From Psammoneis japonica (Eukaryota), in assembly GCA_008632985.1 (NCBI GenBank), contig QPGO01000061.1, positions 62,001 through 126,000 of the forward strand: a stretch of 64,000 bases of DNA, given 5' to 3'. Within the stretch, counting starts at the first letter, position 1; each line of letters starts with the position of its first letter. The position numbers were made by a program, and so were the translations under genes. This document shows, one piece after another, positions 18,316 to 25,540 of this stretch. The notes under the pieces are model-generated. The model worked only from the letters and a program-made list of their open reading frames with translations. It had not been told where the DNA came from and did no database searches.

Positions 18316-19096
18316 TGTATTTCATCTGCGATCAATTACGCGGAATTTCGAAAAACGTGGTCAGAACGGTCATTCTTTAAAATGTCACTGCTGTTTTTTG
18401 AGAATCAACTACGGTACTGTAGGGCCCCTACAGCATTGGTCTTGCCCATTTCTCAACGGTCATTTTGTCACAATGGCACATGTCTATCGGTCATTTGGGG
18501 CATGCCACGCAAGCACAGCACATCAAATCAAATGTGCAAAAGAGAAAGCAACATGGGCAGTGTTTGACTTCTCACTCCATCGCGATCCTTGTTTGTTGTT
18601 GCTTTCCATCCCTTGGCTCATCTGCAAGCCATGCTCAGCTCAGCCCAAGCTGCTGCAAAGGAAGCAAAACTTCACAACAGACAACAGCACTCAATTTCAC
18701 GGAAGGCATGTTGTGACTTTTCCTAAAACTGGAACACTGACGAAAATGTCGCCAAAACGGAAAACTGATACATTTTGTATTGTCTTGCGACAATCAAGAA
18801 ATAATGCATTCTCTTTAGCTCGGTAGATCTACATACATGCTGGGACAATCGTTCATCGCCAGTTTAATGAGACATTTCCGACAATGTCGCCAAAATCGCC
18901 AGTGGCACTCGAGTGCAGCAACTAGTTAAGGTTCCGAACGGACCTTCTAACCGGCCAACTCTCAGTACTTATGCACACGTGCTTACATACGACCAATTCT
19001 CGTTACAAAATACTGGAGGATGACGTCAAGATAGAATGACCTCGCAAGTATCAAAATAAAAAGTGAACAGCACGATACTTCATCGTGGTTTTGACC

Positions 19097-20357
19097 ATGG
19101 CGGCTCAGGACGACAAAGCGAAAAATCCACACCCGTGAGTGTTTACATTTTTGATATATGTGGTCGTTTGTGATGTACTTATTTTATATCCATTGGAATG
19201 TAAACACTCACCCACTTGTTTGCCATGATTTTATCAGGTTCTGTGAAAGTGATGATGATGCCGGCGATGACACGGCATACCTGCAGCGGCGGGAACAAGG
19301 GGAGTCACAGAAGTTCCTACAGCGTTTAAACATGGTTCTTACAACTATTGAGACTAAATCTGCCCTCTGGTTGAATGACAAGTTTGCACGGCTGAGGCAG
19401 TTCGTGTACACCGTGTCTCATCACCCTGAACGGTATCCACCATTACGCCCCACGGAAGCGGCGCAATTGCCATCCAACGCCGGGTCGGAGACTTTCGAAT
19501 TGACCAAAGACATTGCAAAATGTTTGATAGCTCGAGAACCTTTACCTCCTGCCCCCATTGTTGTAAAAGTTACCATCAAGGACAAGAGAACCGAGCGACG
19601 ACACAACAAGAAAAATTTTACAAAAGTGACACTCCACGCTTTGGACGGCAATAATGACATTGTGACAATCAAACTCAACACTTGTCTCAATCCTTCCTCT
19701 TCTCTCATTCAGAGTGGCTCTGTGTTGAAGCTGCTAGATTTTGGTCCAATTTATTTCAGCTTTAGTGATCTTACCGATCGACGTGTCGTGTTGCTGGTTT
19801 CAAATTTTGAAGTTATCGGATTGGAAACGGTAGACAAGAAGTACATGTCTCGCCCAGAAGACAGCTCAAGGCAAGTGAGAAAGCGAGTAATGGATAGCTC
19901 TGATAGTGAGAAGTCTACAAATGGTAATGATGTCGACGAAGAGGCTGACTCTAATCAAATCTGCACATGTGCTAGCCTTTTGGATGGCAGTGGGTGCGTA
20001 TTGGAGACGTGGAGTGTAGATTCTCTTGTTATGAGAGAATTGGCTTTTGACAACCCATGGGCAGATAAAGAAGTACCCGACATGACTTTATCTGAAAAGC
20101 GATTTTTGCTTTATTACTGGTACGCCACAAATGTGTTTCACGTGATTGGGCCGAACAATCGAGTGAGGCTCCCGGGCTGCATCGTCTCTGCCGTCCGGAA
20201 ACGATTCCCAGAACCAAGCGGCATCTACAAAGGACATGAAGATACTTACATCCAGCTGGCAGTGGGTATAGTTGGCATATCGTCTTCTGTCCAATCGTCA
20301 CTTTGTGCTTCTTCCTCAGCAGCATCACTCTGGCACGTTTTCGCATTGTGGTTCTGA
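19097..20357 (+). CDS. KolX-like Kolobok accessory protein (exons 19097-19134, 19238-20357), possibly with an OB-fold
   Basis: C-terminal KRFLLYYWY...GPNNRVRLPGCIVSAVRKRFPEPSGIYKG matches the KolX / P2X7-tail motif R--LP-C-V--IR--FP---G-Y-G; GTGAGT donor at 19135 and CAG acceptor ending 19237 keep frame. Confidence 0.75.
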
Positions 20358-20428
20358 GTGTTGTGGTTCGGGTCTCTGGCAATAGGTACGTGTAAAATAT
20401 AAAATATTATTGATGCTCAATCGACTGT

Positions 20429-23017: not shown

Positions 23018-23253
23018 CCAATGCCACTTGAGATTGGGTGGAAGGTGAAGGAGCACTGTCGACACAGCGCTGCAAACGCCATTGTCATTCGCGCGCATTC
23101 TGAGATTTTCATGATTTTTTGAGAACTGTGGCATGTTCGTGCAGATTCCAACGCGTTCCCCTCCACGCAGCGCTGCTGCATTTTTGCATGGAGTGCATCC
23201 GGGTTGCAGGTCCATTTGGAACCTTAACACAATGCAATGCAAACCAACACACA

Positions 23254-25310
23254 CGTGTGAGTTTTGGCGAAGGAAGACACATGGAGACAAAGTGAGACAA
23301 ATTGAGACAAAGTGAGACAACGTGAGACAAAGTGAGACAACTTGAGACAAAGTGAGACAACTTGAGACAAAGTGAGACAATCATTAATTTGTGTGCAGAT
23401 GTTTGTCACACTCACATGGCGAAAGCCCTCTGCCAACCAGCAGAACGCCTCGCATGTAGAAAATGTGCTGACACCTGCACGATCGCTCTTTTTTCGGTCG
23501 CTTTGCTTGTGCACACGAAATCTCAACAAATGTTTGCAATTCTGACAAGATTCAAGGTGAAAATCGATGCTTCTTTGCATTTTCTAAGGAGCTGTCATCT
23601 CACTTTTTTGAGTTTTCGATTTAAACAAAACGCAAAACGTTCACAAAGAAGCAACAAAAAAGCAATAATTTTGCTTGACGATTTGGGGTGTTCGCACCCT
23701 AAGTAAAACAACATTTTCCTTGAGTGTCACCAAAAAATTCCTCTGACGAGTCTCTTCCTTGTGCACACGATTTCACAATGGGAACACGTCGGATGAATGC
23801 GCACGGATACGACATGGAGAGCTGAACGGAAGCGCCAAGGAGCCATCATGGCAAAATGCCGATTTTCCCTGAGTGTTTGCATCGAATCCATGGCAGAGTG
23901 CAGGGTTCGTGTGGTGCGTTTTGCTGTCGAGAAAAGAGCACAAGGTGAAAATTATTTTTAGTGTACGCATGGCATGTGGGAATTGAGCAAAATGCAGTGT
24001 GTGGCCATGGCGGCTTTCCGAATCGACACCGCATCCCTCCCATTGATCCCGAGGATCCCTCCCATTGATCCCGAGGAACACATGCGTTCGCACATTGCCA
24101 CAGATCACAAACATTGCAAAGCTGTGCATGCCGAAAACTATCCCTTAGACTGTTTTTCGGCTCTCGTTTGCCACATTTTGCAGTCGTTCAGGTGTCATCA
24201 AAGTTTGTCGCGTTCACAAGGAGAAGATTGGCGAGAACGGAAAAAAATGCATTGTCATCACGCCACAATGTCACACAGGCAAGATTCCCACACACAAATG
24301 ATGCAGCAGCATCCTGCTGCGTGTCTTTTCCGGTGCCTCGGCGCCATTGCCTCTCTCGTGTTGTTTCGTGTTGCTCTGCATGAACATGCGTGCTCATCCT
24401 CATGCGTCATGCAACGTCACAGACTGAAACAAAGTGTGGCTAAATTTTTTAAAGTGCTGAGTCTGCCCACAGTCAAGGTTTTCTACGCGCGTTTCGCCAT
24501 GTGATTGTTTGAGCAACGATGAACAAGCGGCACATGTCACACGCATCACTCTGCCGGTGCAGCACAGTGCGACTGCGACTGCCGCCCGGTCGGTGCGGTG
24601 CAGCACCAGTCCCACTGGCTGCCCACTGCTGTGCCAACTGCTGCTGCTGCTCCAGCCACTTTCTGCTCTAGTGGCAGAGAGCAGCAGAGAGCAGCCAGAG
24701 CAAAACAGCAGCAACTCTGCCAGAGAGCAGAGCGGCAAGGCAGCTGCCAGCTCAGTGCTCGCAGTGAGGAGTGTGGCACGACCATTGGCCGTTGCATTGA
24801 TCGCCAATCGCCAACGATGTCTCACTTTGTCTCACGTTGTCTCACTTTGTCTCAATTTGTCTCGCTTTGTCTCACTTTGTCTCAAGTTGTCTCACTTTGT
24901 CTCAAGTCAATGGGAATCTTTCGAAAATGACCCGTGACATGAAACGCACAAATCACTCATCGACGTCCGTAGAATCTACACGTTTTTGTGCCAAAACTGT
25001 TGTCATCTCAAAACTTTTGCAAAAAAGGAGATTGCTGCTAACTGATCAGGCGCATTTCTGCAAATGTGTTGTTCTAAAATGCGCCTGATCAGTTTGCAGC
25101 AAAGTCCATTTTTCGCAGAATTAAAATTCACCAAGGGCAGACGGACAGACAATTTCATGTTTTCGCTGGTGCTGTTCTGCACAATTTCCACGCATTTGTG
25201 AAACAATGACTCTGCGGCACAAAAGATTGCCACTGGTCTCACTTTGTCTCAAATTGTCTCACTTTGTCTCACGTTGTCTCCATGTGTCTTCCTTTGCTAA
25301 AACTCACACA
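23254..25310. mobile_element. Nested non-autonomous TIR element (~2.06 kb) with 10-bp subterminal arrays; probable TA-targeting (Tc1/mariner-like) family
   Basis: TIR CGTGTGAGTTTTGGCGAAGGAAGACACATGGAGACAA and its complement ending 25310; (GAGACAAAGT)n at 23284-23380, inverse arrays at ~24818-24905 and ~25236-25280; flanks CA and TG. Confidence 0.7.
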
Positions 25311-25540
25311 TGCATCAAAAGCATCATGTGTTGCACAAACCAGTTGCAGCACTCAAGTGCCACTGGCGATTTTGGCAACATTTTTGGAAATGTCTCATCA
25401 AACTGGCGACAAATGATTTTTCCATGGAGTCAAGTGTGCAGATCTGCCGAGCCAGAGAGAATGCATTGTTTCTTGATTGTCGCAAGACAATGCAAAATGT
25501 CTCAGTTTTCCATGTTGGCGACATTTTCGTCGGTGTTCCT

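What the first reader, a model, noticed from the sequence alone, without database searches (positions are those of the whole stretch)
18732..25538. Mutation front caught crossing a single transposon nest
Seen: the transposase has no Tyr in its first ~620 track residues but normal Tyr from GGYF onward (left of ~21520), and KolX is intact. The outer MITE's left TIR keeps TA (GTATTG, AATAATG, GGTAGATCTACATAC, ACTAGTT) while the right TIR reads GCATTG, AACAATG, GGCAGATCTGCACAC, ACTGGTT. The Kolobok right TIR differs from the left only by two CpG transitions. Inference: mutation acts on a chromatin domain that fades toward the FAM20 gene, rather than on whole elements.
Basis: partly seen in the sequence, partly recalled or inferred. 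Interest (0 to 1): 0.72.

Follow-up and report, generated by a model that had tools for sequence, protein, structure and literature searches.

The report
Transcribed transposon half escapes TA mutator
One copy of a DNA transposon has kept almost all its TA steps in the half that seems to be transcribed and lost almost all of them to TG or CA in the other half, while sister copies elsewhere show the reverse pattern, so this recently described mutator follows where DNA sits, not which element it belongs to.

Summary
Observation confirmed. A 4.3-kb Kolobok-type transposon (TTAA duplications) sits in a 6.8-kb non-autonomous element beside a FAM20C-like gene. It keeps 106 of 110 ancestral TA sites left of 21525, 10 of 23 up to 22500 and 1 of 24 beyond. 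CpG decay starts at the same place. Other genomic copies differ: wholly hit, untouched, same polarity, or reversed polarity with protection next to a host gene; some target-site duplications are mutated. So A>G change at TpA (TAC/TAT preferred) happens after insertion and by position. The front lies 3.3 kb from the FAM20 start, beyond all 32 5' margins measured, but 1.3 kb from the end of the element's own KolX-like gene. One low-depth contig from a run of unrecorded kind carries this copy's alleles and skips a GT-AG intron on the KolX strand. That suggests the protected half is transcribed. Chromatin, enzyme and a haplotype junction are untested. The process is in print for Bigelowiella natans, and this scan has noted it many times on other DNA of this genome; the copy-by-copy polarity and the transcription lead are what this locus adds.

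The parts
16825..18315 (-). FAM20C-family kinase gene, intact, normal TA content; its 5' end faces the nest
   Evidence: ORF; Pfam PF06702 E=1.1e-37; TA profile
18732..25538 (.). Outer non-autonomous element with ~300-bp inverted arms and 10-bp subterminal tandem repeats; CTG at 18729-18731 and 25539-25541 (3-bp CWG target duplication)
   Evidence: collinear ~1-kb copies on C88 flanked by CAG/CAG
18732..18925 (.). Part of the left arm that stayed beside FAM20: 9 TA in 193 bp
18930..23223 (.). Kolobok-type DNA transposon: GG...CC ends, 16-nt TIRs, TTAA duplications at 18926-18929 and 23224-23227
   Evidence: sequence; ends of nine other copies
19098..20357 (+). KolX-like accessory gene (probable first exon 19098-19136 and GT-AG intron 19137-19238, read by eye); OB-fold-like middle, P2X7-ballast-like C-terminus; TA retained
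20593..20781 (+). 189-nt GT...AG interval skipped by one contig of run X2; candidate intron of a KolX read-through transcript antisense to the transposase 3' end
   Evidence: table 8 record 14 (depth 3.8); boundaries and allele match
20429..23215 (-). DDE transposase frame without internal stop; Tyr-free 5' part; candidate D 22009, D 21649, DxxH 21559, E 20974 (assigned by eye)
   Evidence: PF20700 E=3.3e-7
21520..22500 (.). Mutation front: TA retention falls from 106 of 110 to 10 of 23 and then 1 of 24; the first private CpG loss right of it is at 21533
23228..23410 (.). Remainder of the outer left arm, pushed 4.3 kb away by the Kolobok insertion: 1 TA in 178 bp
23413..24504 (.). Further 1.1-kb insertion with short inverted ends, inside the outer element
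   Evidence: (joint 23406-24508)
25236..25538 (.). Outer right arm: 1 TA in 303 bp

Best explanation
A host process converts A to G in TpA on both strands (TA to TG or CA), prefers TAC and TAT, and acts on silent, CpG-methylated stretches of chromosome after an element has landed. It does not recognise elements as units. Here a Kolobok landed head-to-head with a FAM20C-like gene. Its inward-reading KolX-like gene is probably transcribed, with spliced read-through to at least 20914, and that transcribed unit plus a margin of about 0.6-1.3 kb stays out of the silent domain. The transposase 5' half, the displaced piece of the outer arm and everything to the right lie inside the domain and were rewritten. 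Shown: direction, context, post-insertion timing, position dependence, graded edge, coincident CpG decay in this copy. Weakly shown: transcription of the protected half. Inferred: 5mC or histone marks define the domain; an adenine deaminase of the TadA/ADAT2 family acting on DNA is the mutator.
For: Polarity differs among copies: W 106 of 110, 10 of 23, 1 of 24 left to right; C93 28 of 110 and 12 of 47; C75 6 of 28, 9 of 32, 18 of 24; C131 22 of 26, 4 of 9, 6 of 24. C296 has 1 TA where W has 16 (20908-21500) and 27 where W has 1 (22501-23223). With sites chosen by an outside copy (C51), W keeps 37 of 52 left and 3 of 25 right; C93 keeps 8 of 52 and 5 of 25. All 16 CA-versus-TG discordant sites among the four close copies lie at or right of 21420, showing separate hits in each copy. 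Target duplications read TCAA or TTGA on the depleted side of C75, C4 and C165. The split outer left arm keeps 9 TA in 193 bp beside FAM20 and 1 in 178 bp after displacement. A>G by 5' base in C93: TA 80 of 134, AA 6 of 431, GA 2 of 360, CA 1 of 386; by 3' base: C 81 of 153, T 96 of 181, A 25 of 142, G 18 of 98; 38 TG versus 41 CA, no strand bias. W lost CpG at 1 of 93 sites left and 12 of 80 right (p=0.0007), C93 at 30 of 122 and 18 of 86. The protected island is 16452-21653; its right edge is 1296 bp from the KolX-like stop (3' margins median 832, n=24) and 3338 bp from the FAM20 ATG (5' margins median 434, maximum 1634, n=32). In run X2, contigs 10, 12, 13 and 14 match this copy with 0 differences where C93 differs by 12, 22, 11 and 6; contig 14 joins 20591 to 20781 across a + strand GT...AG interval; contig 9 has 49 differences, the same number as the unmutated copy C51. 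C51 and C193 are untouched and have probable host ORFs starting within about 0.1-0.5 kb of their KolX end.
Against: The transcription evidence is one contig of depth 3.8 from a run whose kind is not on record (the tool guessed DNA); the joint is not in the listed part of the joint table. In C75 CpG loss does not follow the TA front (3 of 24, 10 of 75, 4 of 38). C131 is protected for only about 0.4 kb at its KolX end, and its nearest called ORF ends 1.5 kb away. The flanking ORFs of C51, C193, C75 and C296 have no Pfam match (5 of 5 tested), so their status and starts are my reading. ORF-based margins ignore introns, UTRs and short genes, and one 3' margin (4169 bp, C193) rests on a doubtful ORF. 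Only 10 copies were compared. Nothing links any deaminase found (9 matches) to the process.
Confidence: 0.6

Rival explanations
1. One reading: open chromatin centred on the FAM20 promoter alone shields about 3 kb of whatever is inserted upstream; KolX transcription is incidental.
For: The outer left arm beside FAM20 is also protected. C75 and C296 are protected on the side that faces a host ORF start, for about 0.55 and 1.4 kb. C193 is protected for about 2.6 kb from a host ORF start.
Against: 0 of 32 measured 5' margins exceed 1634 bp, and 3' margins are if anything longer (p=0.05); the two long reaches (W, C193) both run through a KolX-like gene. The two readings are not exclusive: the host promoter may be what switches KolX on.
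Confidence: 0.2
2. An advancing front: silencing spreads leftward from the old repeat block at a finite rate and has not yet reached the left half.
For: Three-level gradient; logistic fit lnL -26.6 versus step -30.6, midpoint 21748, scale 221 bp; with C296-chosen sites 9 of 25 versus 1 of 23 kept, p=0.011.
Against: C193 abuts a depleted block yet shows no invasion (island edge 107089, element end 107032), and differs from C51 by 11 ordinary and only 2 TA/CG-type changes in 2258 bp, so it is not obviously younger; divergence between copies is, however, not insertion age.
Confidence: 0.1
3. Artefact or recombination: an assembly haplotype switch, or a crossover or conversion between a mutated and an unmutated allele or copy, near 21500.
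For: No laid contig bridges the front. The drop from 12 of 13 to 4 of 12 around 21525 is steep. X1 depth is about 58 over FAM20 and 31-45 on the right flank, so the locus may be heterozygous.
Against: Fronts inside elements recur in C75, C296, C131 and C9. The decline goes on over 1 kb. Both TTAA and both CTG duplications match. Ordinary differences from C93 are similar on both sides (11 in 2595, 9 in 1694). The right half has private products against every close copy. No second allele of the FAM20 flank was found in the assembly.
Confidence: 0.06
4. Homology-triggered, RIP-like targeting: the parts with most close copies are hit; or purifying selection keeps TA in KolX and the transposase 3' end.
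For: 21163-23223 has more genomic copies than 19640-20900. The protected part is mostly coding.
Against: 18930-19416 is shared by all four close copies and is protected in W (28 of 30 in 18929-19500) but hit in C93 (8 of 30) and C75 (6 of 28). 35 of 50 TA sites in the KolX frame and 22 of 36 in the transposase 3' end have a synonymous route and are still TA; non-coding arm DNA is protected too.
Confidence: 0.03
5. On the enzyme only: an error-prone polymerase with a WA preference (polymerase-eta-like, recalled) or a modified thymine, not an adenine deaminase, makes the changes.
For: After TA, the next most hit step in C93 is AA (6 of 431); a few TA-to-CG double hits exist (22866, 23092).
Against: The TA:AA rate ratio is about 40:1, changes are almost only transitions (4 transversion columns in 4297), and the 3' pyrimidine preference resembles what I recall for TadA-type enzymes; the review passages I read did not state that preference.
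Confidence: 0.2

Closest known systems
TpA hypermutation of integrated NCLDV and virophage DNA in Bigelowiella natans (Mettrop et al., bioRxiv 10.64898/2026.01.13.699255; parts 1-3 of 5 of the text read)
   Same: TpA to TpG/CpA on both strands; regional; the larger target region is transcriptionally silent; TpA-poor coding sequences enriched in DDE and reverse-transcriptase domains; ADAT2 proposed, untested.
   Different: There it was measured in mutation-accumulation lines on two viral regions. Here it is read from copies of a DNA transposon in another genome, it runs close to saturation, prefers TAY, cuts through single elements with either polarity, and in this copy coincides with CpG decay. 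The parts I read report none of these last three points.
Repeat-induced point mutation (RIP) of ascomycetes (recalled; also named)
   Same: Dense transition mutation of transposons; edges that need not match element ends.
   Different: Opposite direction (RIP makes TpA from CpA and creates stops; this removes TpA and Tyr codons and leaves frames open). Repeated sequence is spared where it sits in a protected island.
Kolobok superfamily, Kol0 lineage (PMC9587614, passages read)
   Same: TTAA duplication, RR...YY ends, DDE transposase with DxxH, second gene with a P2X7-ballast-like C-terminus; the family is on record in a diatom.
   Different: The accessory protein matches P2RX7_C only below cut-off and carries an OB-fold-like part; only 2 relatives were found in the protein collection.
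DNMT5-dependent CG methylation and silencing of transposons in Phaeodactylum tricornutum (PMC9998398, abstract and section 11 read)
   Same: Gives a precedent for CG-methylated, silent transposon domains that would explain CpG decay behind the front.
   Different: The parts read say nothing of TpA mutation; methylation was not measured here, and I did not classify the 27 DNA-methylase matches of this genome as DNMT5.

Membership tests
Kolobok superfamily | TTAA target-site duplication | tested here: met
   TTAA at 18926-18929 and 23224-23227; both ends TTAA in C131, C51, C193; feature from PMC9587614
Kolobok superfamily | 5'-RR ... YY-3' termini with TIRs | tested here: met
   GG...CC with 16-nt TIRs
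Kolobok superfamily | DDE transposase with C/DxxH between second D and last E | tested here: met
   PF20700 hit above cut-off; D, D, DGGH, E motifs in order, assigned by eye; no tree built
Kolobok Kol0 lineage | Accessory KolX protein with P2X7 cytoplasmic-ballast fold and 7 conserved Cys | tested here: inconclusive
   P2RX7_C 18.4 bits versus cut-off 23.5; top PDB sequence hit P2X7 537-595, E=0.49; OB-fold leads; Cys set not aligned
PIF/Harbinger-like non-autonomous element (outer element) | 3-bp CWG target duplication (feature recalled, from no call) | tested here: met
   CTG/CTG here, CAG/CAG in the two C88 copies
PIF/Harbinger-like non-autonomous element (outer element) | Autonomous partner with Harbinger transposase and matching TIRs | not tested
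   no search made
B. natans-type TpA hypermutation | A>G / T>C transitions confined almost wholly to TpA | tested here: met
   TA 80 of 134 versus 9 of 1177 for other steps
B. natans-type TpA hypermutation | Regional targeting of foreign or silent DNA, genes spared | tested here: met
   294,369 of 456,000 bases examined fall in depleted blocks between ORF-bearing islands (sample not random)
B. natans-type TpA hypermutation | Ongoing rate about 1000-fold above background | not testable with these tools
   needs mutation-accumulation lines
B. natans-type TpA hypermutation | Same enzyme (ADAT2-like candidate) | tested here: inconclusive
   TadA/ADAT2-like genes exist on C38 and C26, as expected for tRNA editing in any eukaryote; no link to DNA shown
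Fungal RIP | C>T at CpA producing TpA | tested here: not met
   direction is TA to CA/TG, fixed by mutated target duplications and discordant products
Fungal RIP | Triggered by sequence duplication | tested here: not met
   C51 and C193 (99% alike) are untouched; a segment shared by four close copies is spared in W

The most novel reading that the evidence does not exclude
The TpA mutator is gated by transcription: it is an adenine-editing genome defence tied to CG-methylated silent DNA, and a Kolobok escapes it by landing head-to-head with a host gene so that its KolX-like gene is transcribed and shields about 2.5 kb of the element. Short KolX-bearing derivatives (C51, C193) then escape whole, and full-length elements lose their transposase 5' half.
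Probability: 0.35. Interest if true: 0.82.

Novelty: new variant of a known kind. Interest (0 to 1): 0.6.

Why it matters
The one paper found on this mutator leaves open what it targets. This nest is a natural experiment: near-identical sequence at several addresses, a single arm split by a later insertion, and fronts of both polarities. It shows that address matters, not homology, element identity or selection. If transcription is what shields DNA, the targeting rule can be tested directly with allele-specific RNA-seq and methylation calls at about ten loci. It would also mean that TA content records the past silencing state of each stretch of this genome, and that Tyr-free open frames there are damaged elements rather than unusual genes.

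Tried and rejected
No RNA holder was listed for the stretch; this is no evidence either way. Run X2 has cover in only 6 of 30 bins and none over FAM20, the transposase 5' half or the repeats where X1 reaches 700-2400x, and none of its 8 laid contigs is 95-99% alike; uncovered parts are not counted as evidence, though the pattern is what first suggested an RNA run. Junction test: no contig of X1 or X2 spans 21500, undecided. My idea that promoters protect further than gene 3' ends was tested on 56 island edges and not supported (medians 434 versus 832 bp). Inheritance of the gradient from a parent copy: rejected by discordant products; the excess of same-product pairs (W/C93 12 versus 6) is expected from the TAY bias, but some shared early losses cannot be excluded, as about a dozen sites in 21500-22520 have TA only in the distant copy C296. 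In the left half W itself supplies most TA sites, which inflates its retention; counts based on C51 and C296 were made to control this. Literature searches for a diatom report of TpA loss found only the B. natans preprint; the library lacks most subscription papers, and bioRxiv supplements are closed, so that preprint's tables on sequence context were not seen. A review searched for TadA context preference did not give it. Earlier notes near this locus or on Kolobok/KolX protection: none. That the organism is a diatom is taken from earlier notes; I did not test it.
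Full report
Setting. The window is G000:C62:62001-126000. TA steps run at about 15-30 per 500 bp over genes and 0-5 over long blocks between them, with CA+TG raised. Earlier notes of this scan call the organism a diatom and report this TA loss many times on other pieces of the genome; I did not test the taxonomy.

Anatomy. A FAM20C-family gene (PF06702) reads leftward from 18315. The outer element spans 18732-25538 with CTG on both sides; two ~1-kb relatives on C88 are collinear and flanked by CAG. A 4.3-kb element is inserted in its left arm: 18930-23223, GG...CC ends, TTAA on both sides. 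It has a - strand DDE transposase (PF20700) and a convergent + strand gene whose C-terminus weakly matches the P2X7 ballast domain that marks KolX and whose middle looks OB-fold-like. These features meet the Kolobok definition in PMC9587614 (passages); the KolX label is inconclusive. Two more insertions lie at 23413-24504 and 24907-25237.

There is no Tyr in 620 track residues, then 8 in 363. In-frame Tyr codons of C75 and C296 read Cys, His or Arg here. Eight TA sites of the outer left arm are CA/TG in the right arm. One of the two TIR transitions is a family trait.

Copies. The genome search gave nine other informative copies: close C93 (full length, 95%), C75 and C131 (internal deletions); distant C296, C9, C51, C193, C4, C165; the ~75% pieces on C100 and hits shorter than 150 aligned bases were left out. 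On sites with TA or CA/TG discordance among the four close copies, this copy keeps 106 of 110 left of 21525, 10 of 23 to 22500, 1 of 24 beyond. C93 keeps about a quarter throughout. C75 is reversed (6 of 28, 9 of 32, 18 of 24). C131 has the same polarity over a shorter reach. C296 is reversed too, C4 and C165 are depleted, C51 and C193 are untouched. Choosing sites by an outside copy removes the ascertainment bias and keeps the result: 37 of 52 versus 3 of 25.

Timing and direction. Target duplications have become TCAA or TTGA on the depleted side of three copies. Sixteen sites read CA in one close copy and TG in another, all at or right of 21420. The outer left arm, once contiguous, keeps TA in the piece beside FAM20 and has lost it in the piece pushed 4.3 kb away. 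So the change is TA to TG/CA, made separately in each copy after insertion.

Signature. A>G occurs at 80 of 134 TA opportunities and 9 of 1177 others, about three times more often before C or T than before A or G, with no strand bias. It creates no stops, so frames stay open.

Shape of the edge. A logistic fade (midpoint about 21750, scale about 220 bp) beats a step by 4 log-likelihood units for one more parameter; C296-chosen sites give 9 of 25 then 1 of 23 (p=0.011). CpG decay in this copy starts at 21533 (1 of 93 left, 12 of 80 right), which points to a methylated domain with the same edge.

What anchors the edge. Selection does not: synonymous and non-coding TA sites are kept. Copy number does not: the left 500 bp are shared by four close copies and spared only where the address is protected. 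Youth is doubtful for C51 and C193. Segmenting 456 kb gave 56 island edges with a called ORF: 5' margins median 434 bp, maximum 1634; 3' margins median 832. The edge here is 3338 bp from the FAM20 ATG and 1296 bp from the KolX-like stop, so the island looks like a divergent pair of two active genes. Run X2, of unrecorded kind and from the same sample as X1, gives four contigs identical to this copy's alleles between 19365 and 20914; one joins 20591 to 20781 across a 189-nt interval that begins GTACGT and ends in a pyrimidine tract and TAG on the + strand. A fifth contig differs at 49 places, the count for unmutated C51. I read X2 as RNA and the protected half as transcribed, but this rests on one contig of depth 3.8 and is a lead, not proof. 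No contig bridges the front, so a haplotype switch is unlikely but open.

Mechanism. Most likely a silent, CG-methylated domain recruits or exposes DNA to an adenine deaminase; inosine is copied as G. The B. natans preprint proposes ADAT2 for the same signature. This genome has TadA- and ADAT2-like genes and 27 matches to the C5 DNA methylase family, which shows availability only. CG methylation by DNMT5 silences transposons in Phaeodactylum. A TAY preference for TadA-type enzymes is my recall and was not confirmed. An error-prone polymerase remains possible.

Verdict. A real feature. The process is a new variant of one described in a single preprint and already seen repeatedly by this scan. 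This locus adds opposite polarities among sister copies, a split-arm control, and a first hint that the spared part is the transcribed part. Interest 0.6.

Noticed in passing
window 23413-24504: 1.1-kb insertion with short inverted ends inside the outer element; a 92% copy on C19 and a split copy on C24.
   Followed up: partly
window 24907-25237: 330-bp insertion with a 37-bp-arm hairpin (25021-25113); relative on C144, also inside a related element.
   Followed up: no
window 23115: One extra base relative to a contig of run X1; the frame upstream of Met 23098 differs from C75 and C93, so the transposase start of this copy may be shifted.
   Followed up: partly
window 20277-20372 and 20451-20542: 79% direct repeat between the two convergent genes, also present in C93; each copy is followed by a GTACGT donor-like motif.
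   Followed up: no
window 22866 and 23092: TA read as CG (both bases changed); a few such double hits also in C75, C131 and outer-element copies.
   Followed up: partly
window 15558 and 15570: A contig of run X1 has CA where the window has TG in the depleted left flank, suggesting separate hits on two alleles or paralogs.
   Followed up: no
window 18319-18443: A contig of depth 33 skips 123 bases just upstream of the FAM20 ATG: possibly a second haplotype.
   Followed up: no
C51:39256-41718, C193:104570-107032, C4:886210-888672, C165:79564-82036: A 2.46-kb deletion-derivative subfamily keeps the KolX-like gene but lacks most of the transposase; two copies unmutated, two mutated.
   Followed up: yes
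window 33242-34732 and about 60800-62400: Class-V aminotransferase frame with low TA content and a broken paralog on the other strand, with shared neighbouring sequence: a duplicated block under TA loss.
   Followed up: no
window 25542-25897 and 25986-26406: Two-copy tandem repeats of 179 and 214 bp directly right of the outer element.
   Followed up: no
G000:C62:1882-6405, 27656-32500, 45336-48940: Repeated TA-normal islands with similar ORFs, a dispersed segmental duplication whose genes stay protected.
   Followed up: no
window 9702-11129: 475-aa frame with a long poly-Gln run and no Pfam match, normal TA content.
   Followed up: no
C125, C102, C68, C181: Four FAM20C-like paralogs at 71-77% DNA identity.
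   Followed up: no
L002 (C93), positions matching window 20593-20781: In the mutated copy the candidate acceptor TAG reads TGG and the donor context is changed, so TA loss can also destroy splice sites.
   Followed up: partly
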